From a virus (Duplodnaviria > Caudoviricetes): a stretch of DNA of 64,000 bases. The stretch is taken from IMG/VR virus record IMGVR_UViG_3300018430_000021, positions 227,103-291,102 of that record. One strand, given 5' to 3'. Position numbers and translations under genes: made by a program. Of this stretch, positions 38,260 to 59,526 are shown piece after piece (the stretch's first letter is position 1; every line of letters starts with the position of its first letter). The notes beneath the pieces were generated by a model. That model was not told the origin of the DNA. It saw nothing but the letters and a program-made list of their open reading frames with translations, and did not search any database.

Positions 38260-38976
38260 TTATTCTTTCCACCAATTCAAGGACATTTCGGCCTGTCTTT
38301 CGAGCATATCCATACCGTCAATGGCCCAGGAACAATGTTTATTTTTTTCGGCCTTTTCAACAAGTCTTCTGTCGGCATAGTTCAGGTCATAATAGATAAA
38401 CTTGCTCTTATTATTGAAATTAATGTCTATTCCGGCTTCAAACGGAATAGTATTGACAATAAGGTCAAAATCCTTGGCCTTGAATTCATCCAGACTCTTT
38501 TCGTCGATACCTTTTGGATTTCTTGCGAAAACAGTCATTTCATGGTGTGAAGTCGCAAAATCAGTAGCATCATGAAGCGCGGTAAGAATAGACGGAACTA
38601 CGCCGCCGTTTCCGAGAATAGCCATCTTATGAGGATAATCGAATTCCCAATCGTCATGGTTGTCTACATAATGCTGTAAAGAAATTCGGAATGCTTCACC
38701 ATCAAAGTTTTCACCGATAAAAGTATCATTCAGAATCTTTACGCAATTTACAGACTTAATCCTATCCGCATCCGGCATAAGACAATCTAAATATTTAACA
38801 ATATCCAATTTAAACGGTTTTGTGACATTAAAACCGTCGAGCTTGTCGGCTATTGCAAGTTCAAGACCCTGTTCCACATTGTTGACATCATAAATCTTGT
38901 ATTCGATGCCCCACTGGTCAAAAAGCTCTTTTGACTTGCTATATCCGATATTTTTTCCAATTAAACCAAATTTCAT
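38260..38976 (-). CDS. aroE: shikimate dehydrogenase
   Basis: FGLIGxxIxYSKS, GFNVTxPFK, SVNC, NxDG, ILGNGG, NTIP, YDLNY, DGxDMLxxQA. Confidence 0.9.
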   Translation of the reverse strand: MKFGLIGKNIGYSKSKELFDQWGIEYKIYDVNNVEQGLELAIADKLDGFNVTKPFKLDIVKYLDCLMPDADRIKSVNCVKILNDTFIGENFDGEAFRISLQHYVDNHDDWEFDYPHKMAILGNGGVVPSILTALHDATDFATSHHEMTVFARNPKGIDEKSLDEFKAKDFDLIVNTIPFEAGIDINFNNKSKFIYYDLNYADRRLVEKAEKNKHCSWAIDGMDMLERQAEMSLNWWKE

Positions 38977-38977
38977 A

Positions 38978-39508
38978 TTATGCCAAAAGTACGAGTGAAG
39001 CCAGTTCACGACATTTCTGTGGAATATCCTTTCGCTTTACGAGCATTTCACAGACATTCTGGTACATTCTCTTAAGTGCGTTTTCCTTAGGCATATCCCA
39101 GGAATTATAAACCATGTCAGCCAGCTTGATAAGAAGTGCATCCTTGCTGAGATTACAGAGCTTTTCGGTCATATACTCAGTCTTGCCGACTTCTTCGATA
39201 ATATGCTTGTTATTAGTCAATTCCAATACAAGTTCTGCTACGTCTTCGCTTCCGGAAATAACGGCGATTTCTTCATAAGACGTATCGGTATCTTCCAAAA
39301 GGTCATGACCGAATGCGGCATTAATCTGGTTAATCGTTCCACCATATTTCTTAACAAGCCAAGCTACACCACGAGGATGTACGAAATACGGCATTCCGCT
39401 GCCCTTACGTTCCTGATGGGCATGTCGACCCTTTGCGAAGTAATACATCGCACGGCATTCTACAGGAAAATCCTGAGATTTAGATTTCTTAAACATTGCG
39501 CTAAACAT
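38978..39508 (-). CDS. HD-domain small alarmone ((p)ppGpp) hydrolase, Mesh1/SpoT-like
   Basis: HxxQxRKxSGxPYxxHP, HDLLEDT, LIKLADxxxN. Confidence 0.85.
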   Translation of the reverse strand: MFSAMFKKSKSQDFPVECRAMYYFAKGRHAHQERKGSGMPYFVHPRGVAWLVKKYGGTINQINAAFGHDLLEDTDTSYEEIAVISGSEDVAELVLELTNNKHIIEEVGKTEYMTEKLCNLSKDALLIKLADMVYNSWDMPKENALKRMYQNVCEMLVKRKDIPQKCRELASLVLLA

Positions 39509-40260
39509 TATTCCTCCTCGGTTTCATGTTTCTTTACGGCAACACCAATATTAATAAATTTCTGTCCAATCGCATCTACAGCTTTTTCCCACTTTGCTTC
39601 TCGTTCAATACAGAAAAGTGCATAGTTACGTGTTTCTGCGTTTTCACGTAATTCTGTAGCAAGCTTAAGTGCACCTCTGGCCATCTGTAAACGAGTAGCC
39701 CACAAATCACGTTCAGCAAGAAGTTGACAATGATTTACAGACCAATAATCGGGAAGCACGCCTTCATCATATTGGGTTTCATATTCTCGAATCATAAAAT
39801 CTCCTTAAGCTATATAAAACAATATAAAAAAGAGTTGACGTTCTGTCAACCCCTTTTAATTAACCGGCAATCCAACCATACACTAGTATGATTACTACCG
39901 CGGCAATAAGCATAACCCACATTCCATGAGTAAACCCGCGGACATAGGCACTGATTTCTTTACTCTTCTCGTCTAACACTTTCACCTGCCGTAATCGGAG
40001 TAATTGTATACTTTTCGTTTTCGTCACGCCAGCGTTTCTTTAAACGCTTGAGATTGGTATCTTCTTCCTTTCGAATACCGGAAACCGTGTTTCCATTGGT
40101 AAACCAAACCAGATAATAATAAACCTTTTCGAATTTACGCTTAGGTTTCTTCTTAGGCTCGGAAAGACCCATAGATTCAGAAAGAGCGTTAGCCGCTTCT
40201 TCCAATACGCTCAACGGGCGTTTTACTTGATAACTTGCCATTTATTTTTCCTTTTATTTA

Positions 40261-40381
40261 AGACGGTACTGCGGTATCGAACCGCCAGGCAAACCACGCC
40301 AACGCCGGGTCGAACGGCTATCATTCCATGACTCAATCGGACTCGAACCGAATTTCAGCACCCTTTACTAAGCTACCGTCT
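40261..40381 (-). ncRNA. unknown ~120-nt RNA with three T-loop hairpins
   Basis: Terminal stem AGACGGTA/TACCGTCT encloses TCGG-TTCGAGT-CCGA, GCCG-TTCGACC-CGGC and GCGG-TTCGATA-CCGC; own promoter at 40389-40420. Confidence 0.75.
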
Positions 40382-43300
40382 AATACCTAATATAGAAAAA
40401 GAGTTGACTCTCGTCAACCCTTTTTATTACTTCAATATCGTATCGAACTGCGATGAAAGTTCCTTGCTTGACTTTTCCTTGACAGGATCCGGGAAAAGAC
40501 AATTAGAAATGCCGTCGATAATAATATTACATATACCAACAATAATCATAATTGGTAAAGCAACAACCATAATACCGCAAGACATCAAGTTAATAAACAA
40601 CAATATTGAAACCTTGAAAATATATCGTTTTTCTTCAGGAGACAGACTATCATATTTCGTTCTTTGAGAAAAGTTATACTTATTCTTGAATCCGAGACTG
40701 AGTAATGCCGTACTCCAGAATACAATATGTAAACTTGCCCATGGAATAGTAATATGATTAAAACCGTCAGACAATATCCAAATAAAACAAACAAGTACCC
40801 CTACAACTTCCGCAAGAACGAATAAAATATAAAGTCCTGCTGCAACTGTAAGATCAGATCCAGCATTACTCAAGCCGGAATCAAAGAAAAACTTCATTGT
40901 AAATTCTTGATACTTACGAAACATATTTACTCCTCGGGTTCAAGCGTACCACATGCATAACAACGTTCATGACAAACCGGACAGCTATAGGTATATTCAA
41001 ATTCATTCATACCTGTCTGAATATACTCACACTTATATTTCGGAACGTTAAATTCTGTTTCACATTTATTACATCGAAACTTAAGCTTTGTCGGCTGCTT
41101 GGTAATTTCAGCTTCGCCGACAACAGTTGTTGGTTTCTTTTCGACAGGTCCAAGACAGGTTATAGATTTGATGGCCACAAAATGCTTATACTTACTTTTT
41201 GCGAAATCAATAATTGCCTTGGTCAATGCATCGCCAAGCAGGCTTGATTCGAAAATTTCTTCAGCATAATTATCATCCCAGTCATCAAAACCCATATAAC
41301 CGTCATAGGTCTGATAATGAATGTTTATCTTATACCTTTGTTTCATATTACTTCTTCTTAGCCGCCTTCTTAGCTGCTTTCTTGGCTTCGCGTTCGGCCT
41401 GCTTTGCAGCCAACTTAGCTTCGCGTTCAGCTTCCTTCTTGGCCTTTTCGGCGAGCTTCGCTTCATACTTCTTGATAACCTGCAAACGGCCCTTGAGGGT
41501 AGAATGCTTACGCCTATCATCCATATCATACAGGTCACGCAATACGTCATGATAATCATCTGAATTATCCTGAGTATACTGTCTCAGTTCCAAGCCTGCA
41601 CGAAGAATATCAATAAACGCATTAAAATTCTTCGGGTCAAACTGCTCCATGATAAACTGCGTCTGCGGAGTAGTATAGAAATGCCTTGTATCTTCCTTGT
41701 TGGCACAGAAACGGTTAAAGCCGTAAGTGACTTCAAGCTTGTTCGCCTTCGCATGCTTCACGAAATGCCCAGGATTCGGACAGGACTTATACACATGCAA
41801 ATAAAACTGGTCTTCGCCTTTCTGGAGAATAATCGCATAGTCGTCACGAACCGGATTATAGTCGTTGCCGAGTCGCTTCATCGCTTCTTCACGAGATTCC
41901 TTCTTGCTTTCTTCAATAATTTCGAAACCGTATTCCTTAACGACATTTTTGATCGCATTGAATTCGTCTTCCGTAAAACGAATTTCGGTCGCATAGACCT
42001 TATTGTATGCACCGAAAACATCATAAATTTTCTGGTCACCGGTACCGTAAAGGTCCTGATAGAACGACTTTACCTTATCTTCGCGAAACATGGAAGGGTT
42101 AATCTTTACCGCTTCGTTAAGTTCGTTAAGACATTCCTTTGCGTAATCTTCTGTAATCAATGCGCCCATTATAAGCTCCTTTTTGTTTATAATATAGAAA
42201 ATGGATTGACTTTTGTCAACCCATAATGTTCCTATCTATTATAAGTGCTTTCCATTAAAAGATACATATTATAATTACCTATGTGCCATTTAATTTGTTT
42301 AATAATATTTTCTTCTGTGATTTTGACCTTATAACGACCTTTCGGATAATCATTAGTTAATTTCACGATTTCACCGGTTTTATCAAAATCGGCTGTCATA
42401 ATAGTTCCTAATAATATGGGTGTAAGGATAGAACACGAATCTTCATAATCCTCGAAATAACAACATGGATAAATACTACGACATATAGTTTTAAACGCTT
42501 CTCTATTCATTGATATAAAACCTATTAATTATGTGTAATCATTCATAACGCAGTTTGTATTATTATCCGGTGTATCAGTATCTAGCTTGTTACCGCCTTT
42601 AATACTACAACCACAACATCTTTGATAAACGGCGTTTTTAATAAGCGGCATATCTGCTTTCATCGGTACATAAAGACCATGTGCCTTATAGTTTTCTTTA
42701 CAGAATGTTTGTCTTTCCCACTTATGTAATATATCAAAATTATCGTAATTTTCAGAACTTTTGTCTCCCCAATGAGCACAAAATAGTTCAAGAGCGTCTC
42801 TTTCAGACGAGCAAATATAATGTTTAGGTGTAAAATCAAGACATTCGCTCACGCTAACGATATATTCTTTAGAATTAAATACATCAATAATATTTGTATG
42901 AATAAGCGGCGGTCCAATAAACGTATTAATAAGATACGGAAGATAAATCTCAAAATAAATTCGCGGACAATCGACAAACGGAACAGGATGTGACCTAAGA
43001 CCAATTCCTATATAGTCGTCACATACGTTTTCAAGATAAACACCGTCATTGTCATATCGGAATCCATTAAAATATCCAATATCCGGCGGATCGTTTACGA
43101 ATTTTCTACCAATACCTGCCCATCGGGTAGCGGTAGTTTCGATAACGTTCCTGACATATTTTTCGATAGCAATAGCCGACTGGCCTACCAGCTCTTCCGG
43201 AAATTTATTTTTACTCGGGTCTTTTAACCACAAGTAAGAATCAATAAAAAGCTTAAGAGCTTTAAACGGGTCGTTTTTATACTCAACCGTAAAATCTTCA

Positions 43301-51215: not shown

Positions 51216-51327
51216 TGGGGAAGGCAGGATTCGAACCTACGACACACGCCTTGGAATGGAAATAGGAACGTTATATGCATTTCTACGAAACGTAAATACC
51301 GTTGCTCTACCACTGAGCTACTTCCCC
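51216..51327 (-). ncRNA. tRNA scaffold with the module inserted in the anticodon arm
   Basis: Canonical acceptor, D- and T-arms; about 40 extra nt containing GCATATAACGTTCCTAT. Confidence 0.7.
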
Positions 51328-51332
51328 GAGTG

Positions 51333-51644
51333 GTTAACGCGAAATGTATGAACTCATCTAAAAAATAATGCTTTTGATAGGAACATTCTTTGCGTTAACG
51401 ATGTTAAATATAGTAAAAAGTTGTTGGTTTGTCAACCCCTTTTTTAAAATATTTTTAGCCGGCGAGACTGGATTCGAACCAATAACCCAAAGTACCCTTT
51501 AGATAGGAAGCATTGGTGCTGAAAGCGAATACTAAATCTTAAACTTTTGCTCTACCGATTGAGCTACTCGCCGAGATGTTAACGCGAAATGTATAAACTG
51601 ATCGAAAATAATGTTTTTTTGATAGGAACATTCTTTGCGTTAAC
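51333..51644 (-). repeat. two copies (51333-51399, 51578-51644) of a ~67-nt hairpin RNA carrying the module, each after its own promoter
   Basis: GTTAACGC...GCGTTAAC ends; GCAAAGAATGTTCCTAT in both. Confidence 0.8.
51459..51573 (-). ncRNA. tRNA-Pro-like scaffold with the module inserted in the anticodon loop
   Basis: CGGCGAG/CTCGCCG acceptor; AAAGT/ACTTT stem around an insert with GCACCAATGCTTCCTAT. Confidence 0.7.
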
Positions 51645-59413: not shown

Positions 59414-59526
59414 TCGGAGAGGCACGGCTCGAACGTGCGACCTGCGGGTTATAAGCCATTAATAGGAACAACCTGTGCCATGAGCGGGTAGTAAAGTACG
59501 CTGCTCTACCACTGAGCTACTCTCCA
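59414..59526 (-). ncRNA. tRNA scaffold with the module inserted in the anticodon arm
   Basis: Canonical acceptor, D and T arms; insert with GCACAGGTTGTTCCTAT. Confidence 0.7.

What the first reader, a model, noticed from the sequence alone, without database searches (positions are those of the whole stretch)
40261..40420. Stand-alone RNA with three T-loop hairpins
An 8-bp terminal stem encloses three hairpins that each carry a TTCGANN T-loop. There is no anticodon arm, and the RNA has its own promoter cassette away from the tRNA arrays. It could be a multivalent tRNA-elbow mimic or decoy, or bind tRNA elbows through interdigitated T-loops as T-box RNAs and RNase P do (inference).
Basis: partly seen in the sequence, partly recalled or inferred. 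Interest (0 to 1): 0.75.

Follow-up and report, generated by a model that had tools for sequence, protein, structure and literature searches.

The report
Triple T-loop tRNA-like phage RNA
A giant phage from the ruminant gut carries a conserved 120-base RNA gene built on a tRNA frame, with extra copies of the tRNA "elbow" where the anticodon part should be, so it probably imitates tRNA bodies rather than reading codons; its job is untested.

Summary
The RNA is on the minus strand at window 40380..40261 (120 nt). Positions 40381-40420 are its sigma-70-type promoter, set in a T4-style promoter/terminator (PeSL) hairpin. A terminal stem of 7 bp, a bulged G and 2 more bp stacks on a 4-bp T arm. It encloses two further hairpins with exact tRNA T-loops (G-UUCGANN-C) and three hairpins whose loops keep an invariant GG.

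ARAGORN and Rfam 15 do not recognise it. Ten sequence variants exist in ruminant-gut megaphage contigs, one copy per genome in two complete 416-424 kb genomes. Across them 97.6% of cells pair, and 7 pairs show compensatory double changes (0 of 500 shuffles reach this). The downstream genes differ between relatives, so it is a selected, stand-alone RNA gene and not decayed tRNA debris.

T-loops recur every 33 nt, or every 36 nt in a second clade. The number of T-loops equals the number of GG loops. This fits three tRNA-elbow-like modules. The first module is almost identical to part of a widespread, apparently undescribed ~93-nt two-T-loop RNA found in at least 46 distinct IMG/VR sequences.

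My best reading is a non-decoding tRNA mimic or decoy made early in infection. Function and expression remain untested. First-stage notes of this scan saw the related two-T-loop family on other DNA.

The parts
40401..40420 (-). PeSL-type hairpin (8-bp stem, GAGA loop) followed by a T run at 40396-40400. It is a terminator-like element for the upstream ORF and contains the -35 box.
   Evidence: terminator-like hit 40403-40418. The same cassette type matches 17 times in the window against 0.23 expected. PeSLs are described in PMC2839356 and PMC4122927.
40389..40417 (-). Sigma-70-type promoter: TTGACG (40417-40412), 17-nt spacer, TATATT (40394-40389). The -10 box ends 8 nt before G1.
   Evidence: Seven of the 10 variants have an equivalent TTGAC/TTTAC-17-TATATT box. 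The other three have TGGTATAAT, and the -10 box ends 6-14 nt before G1.
40261..40380 (-). The RNA gene itself (120 nt; RNA position n = 40381 - n in window coordinates).
   Evidence: The CM R1 match covers 40259-40382 at 151 bits. Ten homologous variants exist.
40371..40380 (-). 5' strand of terminal stem P1: nt 1-7, bulged G8 (A in L133), nt 9-10.
   Evidence: Compensatory changes occur at 5:115 (G-C/A-U) and 9:112 (C-G to U-A in L121). G1-C changes to G.U in 3 variants.
40356..40370 (-). D-arm-like hairpin (nt 11-25): 4-bp stem (U.G, A-U, G-C, U.G) and a loop AAAGG(G)U with invariant GG.
   Evidence: The stem never varies. The loop flanks vary while GG is kept.
40337..40351 (-). Hairpin h1 (nt 30-44): UCGG / UUCGAGU / CCGA, first T-loop. 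The sequence is invariant in all 10 variants.
40320..40332 (-). Hairpin h2 (nt 49-61): GYCAU / GGA / AUGRU. The loop keeps GG.
   Evidence: pair 50:60 changes from U-A to C-G in 3 variants..
40304..40318 (-). Hairpin h3 (nt 63-77): GCYG / UUCGACY / CRGC, second T-loop.
   Evidence: pair 65:75 changes from C-G to U-A in 3 variants..
40288..40300 (-). Hairpin h4 (nt 81-93): 3-bp stem GGC/GCC (GAU/AUC in clade B, GGU/GCC in two variants). The loop contains an invariant GUGG.
   Evidence: In the CM alignment A4 only pair 83:91 registers as a double change (C-G/U-A, with U.G in two variants), and 81:93 scores as unpaired in the three clade-B rows. Reading the clade-B stem as GAU/AUC by eye gives a second compensatory pair (82:92, G-C to A-U).
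40271..40285 (-). T arm h5 (nt 96-110): GCRG / UUCGAUW / CYGC, third T-loop, stacked directly on P1.
   Evidence: pair 98:108 changes from G-C to A-U in 2 variants..
40261..40270 (-). 3' strand of P1 (nt 111-119) plus nt 120, a discriminator-like base (U or A). No CCA is encoded.
39960..40241 (-). Downstream 93-aa ORF (no Pfam family; weak phrog_6321 hit). Its start codon lies 19 nt after the RNA, with no terminator between them. It is probably co-transcribed but is not conserved next to the RNA in other phages.
   Evidence: Metatranscriptome contigs run from about 40370 through the RNA into this ORF (weak).

Best explanation
This is a stand-alone gene for a non-decoding, tRNA-like RNA.

Transcription and processing. 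Host RNA polymerase starts at or next to G1 from a sigma-70-type promoter embedded in a PeSL cassette. That would make it an early transcript (inferred). The transcript runs on into the next small ORF. The 120-nt RNA would be released at its 3' side by the tRNA 3'-end machinery (inferred).

Fold. The RNA forms a tRNA-like acceptor/T-arm stack of 13 bp (7 + 2 + 4, with a bulged G8). In place of the D, anticodon and variable arms it carries five hairpins. Together with the T arm these give three tRNA-consensus T-loops and three GG loops. I propose that each T-loop is capped by one GG loop, as the D-loop caps the T-loop in tRNA, giving three elbow-like corners. The D-like loop would pair with the T arm, h1 with h2, and h3 with h4. 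The last two pairs are 33-nt 'T-hairpin + GG-hairpin' modules, and the second looks like a tandem duplicate of the first.

Function. The RNA cannot read codons. It most likely acts in trans as a tRNA-body mimic that occupies or diverts something that reads the acceptor/T-arm/elbow part of tRNA. Candidates are a host tRNA-targeting defence enzyme or a tRNA-processing or tRNA-modifying factor.

Shown: the gene, its boundaries, the helices, its conservation and its independence from neighbouring genes. Inferred: the loop-loop contacts, the processing, the timing and the target.
For: - All helices except the two invariant ones carry compensatory changes. 97.6% of cells pair, 7 pairs change on both sides, and 0 of 500 shuffles reach this. 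Slid controls collapse (RNAalifold).
- There is one copy per genome in four related records, two of them complete 416-424 kb genomes.
- There are ten variants with five different downstream contexts. One context (L072/L122) holds two different RNA alleles, so the RNA is an independent module and not a leader of one gene.
- A promoter is always present immediately upstream.
- There is no tRNA, tmRNA or other Rfam call.
- All three loops fit G53-UUCGA-NN-C61. Loop positions 59/60 vary, as in T-loops, which does not fit an anticodon loop.
- GG is invariant in three partner loops whose neighbouring bases vary.
- The number of T-loops equals the number of GG motifs here (3/3), in the ~93-nt relatives (2/2) and in L009-type RNAs (3/3).
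- T-loop spacing is 33/33 nt in clade A and 36/36 nt in clade B.
- The terminase is T4-like at about 30% identity. T4-type phages are known to make small stable RNAs of unknown role from their tRNA region (PMC3014915; PMC9697503).
Against: - There is no direct evidence that the RNA accumulates. Metatranscriptome contigs cover it at the same low depth as its flanks, and DNA carry-over cannot be excluded.
- The single-sequence fold is not more stable than shuffles (z = -0.40).
- The loop-loop pairing scheme rests on analogy. The invariant G and C bases cannot covary, so the other register (D-like with h1, h2 with h3, h4 with h5) is equally allowed.
- No partner protein or conserved neighbouring gene was found.
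- All variants are at least about 88% identical and fall into few lineages, so the double changes represent only about 5-6 independent events.
Confidence: 0.5

Rival explanations
1. It is a cis-acting 5' element. The tRNA-shaped structure at the start of the transcript would serve as a processing or punctuation signal (cut by RNase Z, P or E) or as a 5' stabiliser for the downstream mRNA, and the excised RNA itself would have no job.
For: There is no terminator between the RNA and the next ORF. The start codon follows 19 nt later, and in every relative a small ORF follows within about 20-30 nt. RNA-library contigs from two studies run from about 40370 through the RNA into the ORF.
Against: The downstream ORFs are unrelated in the five contexts. 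A 120-nt, seven-helix structure with an invariant 40-nt block and three exact T-loops is far more than a processing signal needs. Relatives of the same architecture sit inside tRNA arrays or alone.
Confidence: 0.15
2. It is a chargeable special-purpose tRNA-like RNA. It would receive CCA and be aminoacylated through its acceptor stem, then serve a non-decoding role as an aminoacyl donor, a synthetase or EF-Tu regulator, or in a tmRNA-like rescue.
For: The acceptor-like 7-bp stem is continuous with a T arm, which is the minihelix read by CCA-adding enzyme, RNase P/Z and several synthetases (established knowledge). The phage invests heavily in translation, with about 44 tRNA genes. A first-stage note also reports an alaS-like gene (e1-5905310, not checked here).
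Against: The discriminator position is not conserved (U in 5 variants, A in 5) and often pairs with nt -1. There is no G3.U70 and no encoded CCA. The stack is 13 bp with a bulge, not 12 bp. There is no tag ORF, and ARAGORN finds no tmRNA.
Confidence: 0.12
3. It is an elbow binder. Two of its T-loops would interdigitate, as in T-box Stem I, the RNase P S-domain and the L1 stalk, to form a platform that stacks on the elbows of real tRNAs, so that it sequesters or senses them.
For: Interdigitated T-loops are the recurrent elbow-docking device, and that review explicitly predicts such devices in viral transcriptomes (PMC4919913). Three T-loops lie within 75 nt.
Against: The known motif uses bare five-nucleotide T-loops with almost no Watson-Crick pairs, which as I recall sit in internal loops or bulges. 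Here each T-loop is a full tRNA-consensus 7-nt hairpin loop with the G53-C61 closing pair, and each has its own GG-loop partner. That predicts self-capping. There is no specifier-like or 3'-end-sensing element.
Confidence: 0.08
4. It is an aberrant decoding tRNA. Hairpin h1 would be an anticodon arm (loop UUCGAGU = U33, anticodon CGA for Ser, G37) and h2-h4 would be a giant variable region.
For: The h1 loop can formally be read as anticodon CGA. Ser tRNAs are class II with long variable arms. The phage's own tRNA-Ser(CGA) has a similar anticodon loop, UUCGAAC.
Against: The genome already has a normal tRNA-Ser(CGA). ARAGORN and Rfam reject the RNA. In the related ~93-nt family the sixth loop base varies between G, C and U, which fits T-loop position 59 but not a purine 37. 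The stem has a U.U mismatch. There is no sequence similarity to any of the phage's tRNAs beyond the T-loops.
Confidence: 0.05
5. It is non-functional debris: fused, decaying tRNA fragments or a chance arrangement.
For: It lies in a genome full of tRNA genes and odd tRNA-like pieces.
Against: There is compensatory covariation in six helices, only rare disruptive changes (a 1-nt deletion in h2 of L087 and a lost top pair of h2 in L121/L122), a conserved promoter, a single copy retained in diverged complete genomes, and flanks that diverge completely while the RNA stays about 90% identical.
Confidence: 0.02

Closest known systems
Unnamed ~93-nt two-T-loop phage RNA family (consensus: 7-8-bp terminal stem, UUGGAUACAAG, T-loop hairpin, GUCAUGGAUGAC, GGGUAGCUCCC, 6-bp T arm). 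I found at least 46 distinct sequences in IMG/VR. L009, L042, L068 and L190 are three-T-loop versions.
   Same: It shares the frame: a terminal stem stacked on a T arm (13 bp in all), a 5' GG segment, then a T-loop hairpin followed by a small hairpin with a (U)GG loop. The 16-nt block UCGGUUCGAGUCCGAU and the 8-nt block GUCAUGGA are identical to the focal RNA. L009 also has a 33-nt spacing between its first two T-loops. The neighbouring genes vary, and neither family is in Rfam.
   Different: The focal RNA lacks the GGGUAGCNCCC hairpin, has a real D-like hairpin, and has a second T-hairpin + GG-hairpin module. Cross-searches with covariance models give only 20-34 bits. Ordinary class II tRNAs score 18-24 bits, so homology is likely but not proven.
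YrlA / bacterial and phage Y RNAs (Rfam RF02553; Chen et al. 2014, PMC4201824)
   Same: Both are non-decoding RNAs of about 100-130 nt that mimic the T arm, D arm and acceptor stem of tRNA. YrlA is modified by TruB and DusA, and some members are cut by RNase P and receive CCA. It also occurs in phages.
   Different: YrlA is circularly permuted, with its 5'/3' ends forming the Ro60-binding stem. It has one T arm and is encoded next to Ro60. Here there is no RF02553 hit, no TROVE or RtcB gene in the 291-kb record, the terminal stem is acceptor-like, and there are three T-loops.
Phage T4 RNAC and RNAD (species 1 and 2 RNAs), small stable RNAs of the T4 tRNA region
   Same: They occur in a phage of the T4 superfamily (terminase about 30% identical; PeSL cassettes). 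They are 119-139-nt stable RNAs next to tRNA genes, RNAC ends in a T arm, and their role is still unknown.
   Different: There is no sequence or model similarity. R1 gives only a 6.7-bit local T-loop match in rnaC. The T4 RNAs are processed from the tRNA transcript and do not show three T-loops.
Class II tRNAs (Ser, Leu, Tyr), Rfam RF00005
   Same: They share a 7-bp acceptor stem, the T arm consensus, GG in a D-like loop, and a long region between the 'anticodon-position' arm and the T arm.
   Different: The focal RNA has no anticodon loop, a 4-bp T stem plus two pairs donated by nt 9-10, a bulged G8 instead of U8, and three extra hairpins. ARAGORN and Rfam reject it.
Interdigitated double T-loop modules of T-box Stem I, the RNase P S-domain and the L1 stalk (PMC4919913)
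   Same: Both use several T-loop motifs within one small domain, and both are functionally tied to the tRNA elbow.
   Different: Those modules bind elbows. They use five-nucleotide T-loops that fill each other's gaps and are not tRNA-consensus hairpins. Here the GG loops are the likely gap-fillers, so this RNA would present elbows rather than dock them.

Membership tests
Canonical tRNA (RF00005) | Cloverleaf with an anticodon arm (7-nt loop, U33, purine 37) that tRNA finders detect | tested here: not met
   ARAGORN finds nothing, with or without introns. Rfam tRNA is not reported even at E<=10 on a 501-nt slice.
Canonical tRNA (RF00005) | T arm with G53, U54, U55, C56, R57, A58 and C61 | tested here: met
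   It is met three times, at nt 33-41, 66-74 and 99-107.
Canonical tRNA (RF00005) | Acceptor stem of 7 bp plus T stem of 5 bp (12-bp stack), with U8 and N9 unpaired | tested here: not met
   The stack is 7 bp, bulged G8, 2 bp formed by nt 9-10, then a 4-bp T stem. Pair 9:112 covaries in L121.
YrlA / Y RNA (RF02553) | Match to the Rfam covariance model | tested here: not met
   There is no hit at the gathering threshold or at E<=10, and none in the homologous loci.
YrlA / Y RNA (RF02553) | Encoded near a Ro60 (TROVE) gene, often with RtcB | tested here: not met
   PF05731 and PF01139 are absent from the 291-kb record. The record is estimated to be 70% complete.
tmRNA | tRNA-like domain plus tag reading frame and pseudoknots | tested here: not met
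   ARAGORN tmRNA and Rfam tmRNA give no call. At 120 nt there is no tag ORF.
Interdigitated T-loop elbow-docking module | Two T-loops interlocked head to tail, forming a stacking platform | not testable with these tools
   This needs 3-D data. The sequence argues against it, because each T-loop has a GG partner (PMC4919913).
T4 RNAC/RNAD | Sequence or structure homology to T4 rnaC or rnaD | tested here: not met
   R1 searched on T4 68-76 kb with filters off gives only a 6.7-bit local T-loop match.
Unnamed ~93-nt two-T-loop phage RNA family | Terminal stem, T-loop hairpin, (U)GG hairpin and T arm in that order, forming a 13-bp stack | tested here: met
   The shared blocks UCGGUUCGAGUCCGAU and GUCAUGGA are present.
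Unnamed ~93-nt two-T-loop phage RNA family | GGGUAGCNCCC hairpin before the T arm; significant covariance-model match | tested here: inconclusive
   The hairpin is absent from the focal RNA and from the whole record. R2 scores the focal RNAs at 19.5-25.7 bits, which is the range of ordinary class II tRNAs.
PeSL promoter/terminator cassette (T4-type phages) | Stem-loop terminator overlapping a sigma-70 early promoter, repeated through the genome at module borders | tested here: met
   (17 copies against 0.23 expected). PMC2839356 and PMC4122927.
Type III antitoxin RNA repeats (ToxI-like) | Near-identical tandem repeats directly upstream of a conserved endoribonuclease toxin gene | tested here: not met
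   The 33-nt units are only loosely alike. The downstream ORFs differ between relatives and match no toxin family.

The most novel reading that the evidence does not exclude
A 'T-hairpin + GG-hairpin' unit of about 33 nt is a self-contained folding module that can be duplicated and that reproduces the tRNA elbow. Phages mount one, two or more such modules on a tRNA acceptor/T-arm frame. This would give a whole superfamily of 'poly-elbow' RNAs. They would titrate an elbow-reading host factor, such as a tRNA-directed defence nuclease or transferase, RNase P, a T-box leader or the ribosomal L1 stalk, early in infection. This would be a new class of RNA decoy and a natural example of modular growth of tRNA-like folds.
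Probability: 0.3. Interest if true: 0.85.

Novelty: new variant of a known kind. Interest (0 to 1): 0.62.

Why it matters
Non-decoding tRNA look-alikes in phages, such as T4 RNAC/RNAD, T5 stable RNAs and YrlA, have been known for decades without a function. This RNA is an unusually clear case. It is compact, supported by covariation and carries three exact tRNA T-loops. It has a simple modular logic and probable relatives in many uncultured phages. At 120 nt it is small enough for crystallography or cryo-EM, for modification mapping and for pull-downs. It could therefore show what the 'elbow' of tRNA is used for outside translation, and whether phages use RNA decoys against tRNA-directed host defences. 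It also adds at least one family, and probably a superfamily, that is missing from Rfam 15.

Tried and rejected
- Rfam 15 at gathering and at E<=10 on the window, the slice, 12 related loci and an L009-type relative. Only chance-level hits appeared (STnc370, cyano_het_sRNA, DUF2815, tRNA-Sec at 15.7 bits).
- ARAGORN, with and without introns, on the window and the whole record gave no call at the locus.
- blastn of the locus and of a ~93-nt family member against 50,697 phage records gave no match.
- PHROGs and Pfam on ten neighbouring ORFs gave nothing related to RNA.
- Public RNA runs. Thirteen ruminant-gut metatranscriptome runs hold part of the stretch. Contigs from four runs were laid on it. 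Cover is flat and low (3-8x) over the RNA and its flanks alike, and these are contigs rather than reads, so there is no verdict on expression. Two contigs from different studies end at 40369 and 40372, about 10 nt inside the predicted 5' end. That is only a weak hint of a start there.
- Neighbour-gene clustering around 46 members of the ~93-nt family found no gene shared by more than 5 loci.
- Reciprocal covariance-model searches between the focal and the ~93-nt families gave scores overlapping those of class II tRNAs, so there is no statistical proof of homology.
- T4 rnaC and rnaD are not related by R1.
- Comparison with all 42 tRNAs of the record found no parent tRNA.
- A possible D-like-loop GGGU pairing with ACCC of the h3 loop was considered. 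It is kept as wobble in clade B but is not general to the other loops, so I dropped it.
- Literature searches for a described multi-T-loop phage RNA found none.
- The host was not identified. One relative sits in a MAG labelled Methanobrevibacter, which is probably a binning error given the bacterial-type promoters and Shine-Dalgarno sites.
Full report
**Where and what.** The window is the last 64 kb of a 291-kb IMG/VR virus record, estimated 70% complete. The record carries about 44 tRNA genes, almost all on the minus strand. Its large terminase is about 30% identical to those of T4-like phages. The feature reads sensibly only on the minus strand.

A hairpin followed by a T run lies at 40420-40396. 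It contains TTGACG, followed by a 17-nt spacer and TATATT, ending at 40389. This composite terminator/promoter form occurs 17 times in the window against 0.23 expected. It corresponds to the PeSL cassettes of T4-type phages (PMC2839356, PMC4122927).

Eight nucleotides after the -10 box a 120-nt segment begins (40380..40261). Its ends pair, and it contains three hairpins with the loop UUCGANN closed by G-C. The loops start exactly 33 nt apart. Its description of the stem and of the three T-loops is correct.

**Not a known RNA.** ARAGORN, with or without introns, makes no call here. Rfam 15 makes none at gathering thresholds, and none but chance-level hits at E<=10. The region has no match among 50,697 phage records.

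**Homologues.** A pattern for three closely spaced T-loops, followed by more specific patterns, recovered relatives in IMG/VR, JGI/ENA metagenomes and one GTDB MAG. These give ten distinct sequence variants in two clades. All come from rumen, goat or sheep gut material. Ruminant-gut RNA libraries also hold parts of the stretch. A covariance model (R1) finds exactly one strong copy in each of four related records. Two of these are complete genomes of 416 and 424 kb with terminal repeats.

Every variant has a promoter directly upstream. The sequence downstream of the RNA falls into five unrelated contexts. One context (L072 and L122) carries two different RNA alleles between identical flanks. 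That is what PeSL-mediated module shuffling predicts. The RNA is thus an independent gene and not the leader of a particular protein gene.

**Structure.** RNAalifold and a pair count on the model-fitted alignment support the following elements.
- **P1:** nt 1-7 pair with 113-119. G8 is bulged. Then 9:112 and 10:111 pair.
- **T arm:** a 4-bp stem (96-99 with 107-110) abuts P1 directly, giving a 13-bp stack.
- **D-like hairpin:** nt 11-25.
- **h1:** nt 30-44, first T-loop.
- **h2:** nt 49-61, GGA loop.
- **h3:** nt 63-77, second T-loop.
- **h4:** nt 81-93, loop with GUGG.

Overall 97.6% of cells form standard pairs. Seven pairs show changes on both sides, in P1 (three pairs), h2, h3, h4 and the T arm. 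None of 500 shuffles reaches these values, and structures slid by 1-3 columns give 27-56% pairing with 0-1 such pairs.

Three caveats apply:
- The alignment was fitted to the model.
- The sequences are about 90% identical.
- The double changes trace to about five or six events.

Even so, there are almost no disruptive changes while the flanks diverge completely. The D-like hairpin and h1 never vary. This 40-nt invariant block suggests a sequence-specific contact. The fold of the single sequence is no more stable than shuffles (z = -0.40), so the case rests on comparison and not on energy.

**Modular logic.** All three T-loops carry the full tRNA consensus (G53, U54, U55, C56, G57, A58, C61). 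They vary only at positions 59/60. That fits T-loops and speaks against reading h1 (UUCGAGU) as an anticodon loop for CGA. The record also has a normal tRNA-Ser(CGA).

The three other hairpin loops each keep an invariant GG while neighbouring bases vary or suffer indels. T-loop spacing is 33/33 nt in clade A and 36/36 nt in clade B. The units h1+h2 and h3+h4 have the same layout: a 4-bp T hairpin, a 3-4-nt linker and a hairpin with the core C-R-U-G-G-W-W-U-G. This looks like a tandem duplication.

In tRNA, G18 and G19 of the D loop cap the T-loop to make the elbow (established knowledge). Three T-loops and three GG loops therefore suggest three elbow-like corners. I favour this pairing: D-like loop with T arm, h1 with h2, and h3 with h4. 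The reason is that in the simpler relatives described below, an unpaired 5' GG segment is left for the T arm and h2 is left for h1. This register is an inference. The invariant bases cannot covary.

**A wider family.** The three-T-loop scan also picked up RNAs with the same order of parts and a GGGUAGCNCCC hairpin. A dedicated scan found 65 IMG/VR stretches with 46 distinct sequences. Most are a ~93-nt RNA with a 7-bp terminal stem, a GG-containing single strand, a T-loop hairpin, a small (U)GG hairpin, the GGG/CCC hairpin and a 6-bp T arm. This again makes a 13-bp stack. Ten pairs covary in that family.

Its T-loop hairpin and the start of its small hairpin are identical to 16 and 8 consecutive bases of the focal RNA. 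L009, L042, L068 and L190 are three-T-loop versions, and L009 also shows the 33-nt spacing. No neighbouring gene is shared by more than 5 of 46 loci. Cultured phages lack the family at blastn sensitivity, and Rfam does not cover it.

Model cross-searches give 34 bits for L009 with R1, and 20-26 bits for the focal RNAs with R2. Ordinary class II tRNAs reach 18-24 bits. I therefore call the relationship probable, not proven. First-stage notes of this scan had seen 'double-T-arm' RNAs of this kind on other genomes.

**Comparison with known systems.**
- **YrlA (PMC4201824).** This is the best-studied tRNA mimic. It is circularly permuted, binds Ro60 and has one T arm. Here there is no RF02553 hit and no TROVE or RtcB gene.
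- **T4 RNAC/RNAD.** These are the nearest biological analogues. They are small stable RNAs of unknown role in the tRNA region of a T4-type phage. They are unrelated by sequence or model.
- **Interdigitated T-loops of T-box, RNase P and the L1 stalk.** These dock tRNA elbows (PMC4919913). The self-capping predicted here makes this RNA a presenter of elbows and not a binder of them.
- **tmRNA, type III antitoxin repeats and a decoding tRNA-Ser.** Each of these readings fails specific tests (see the membership table).

**Mechanism proposed.**
- *Shown:* a conserved, single-copy, independently promoted structured RNA gene without an anticodon.
- *Inferred:* transcription by unmodified host polymerase from the sigma-70 consensus promoter, starting at or next to G1 (the -10 box ends 6-9 nt before G1 in the seven cassette-promoter contexts and 14 nt before it in the other three). 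Release of the 3' end by tRNA 3'-processing enzymes, since no terminator precedes the next ORF. Modification of the three T-loops by TrmA and TruB, which recognise isolated T arms (established knowledge). A compact three-elbow fold. Action in trans as a mimic that occupies a factor reading the acceptor/T-arm/elbow of tRNA.

The factor is unknown. tRNA-directed defence enzymes and tRNA-processing factors are the obvious candidates. Expression data are inconclusive.

**Verdict.** This is a real and unusual RNA gene: a new, elaborated variant within the loosely known kind 'phage tRNA-like non-decoding RNAs'. It is probably one branch of a larger undescribed superfamily. Nothing about function has been tested.

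Noticed in passing
window 51216-51327, 51459-51573, 59414-59526 (minus strand): Three Rfam tRNA matches of 112-115 nt carry inserts of about 40 nt in or near the anticodon region. ARAGORN proposes introns of 24-41 nt. The inserts and the leaders upstream of these genes share a GUUCCUAU motif. A first-stage note (e1-5905312) describes a nine-copy module.
   Followed up: partly
IMG/VR loci L140-L199, e.g. L143:1392-1491 (+): A widespread ~93-nt two-T-loop RNA family (at least 46 distinct sequences) with a GGGUAGCNCCC hairpin. It has 10 covarying pairs, no Rfam family, no conserved neighbouring gene and no match in cultured phages.
   Followed up: partly
L009:405-541, L042:8297-8435, L068:2754-2887, L190:7474-7613; also L047:3788-3945: Longer relatives (134-158 nt) with three T-loops or large inserts between the small hairpin and the T arm. 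In L009 the RNA abuts tRNA genes on both sides with gaps of 1-3 nt, so it is probably processed like a tRNA.
   Followed up: partly
window, 17 sites listed (e.g. 39849-39821, 42219-42191, 43388-43360, minus strand): T4-style PeSL promoter/terminator cassettes (TTGAC-N18-TATAWT, often inside a hairpin) punctuate this megaphage genome. L072 and L122 have identical flanks around different alleles of the RNA, which fits cassette-mediated module exchange.
   Followed up: partly
L053:4491-4570 (+), directly after the homologous RNA: In place of an ORF there is a GC-richer stretch (starting ACTTGGCGGCTCCGGAACGC) that looks structured. It may be another RNA.
   Followed up: no
L133 (JAFRFD010000099.1, 27.7 kb): A contig carrying the RNA together with phage-type promoters is binned in a goat-ileum MAG labelled Methanobrevibacter. 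This is probably a mis-binned phage contig.
   Followed up: no
window 38260-39009 and 38978-39508 (minus strand): These ORFs carry a shikimate-dehydrogenase N-terminal domain and a RelA/SpoT-type HD_4 hydrolase domain. They are possible auxiliary metabolic or alarmone genes about 1 kb downstream of the RNA.
   Followed up: no
G000:C1:94031-97486 (L200): The Terminase_6C match lies in a 350-aa ORF (L200 1345-2397, minus strand) that abuts a 302-aa ORF (437-1345). The large terminase may be split or interrupted.
   Followed up: no
window 40440-40448 (minus strand): A fourth GTTCGATAC lies at the end of the upstream 165-aa ORF. It has no flanking complementarity, so I take it as chance.
   Followed up: yes
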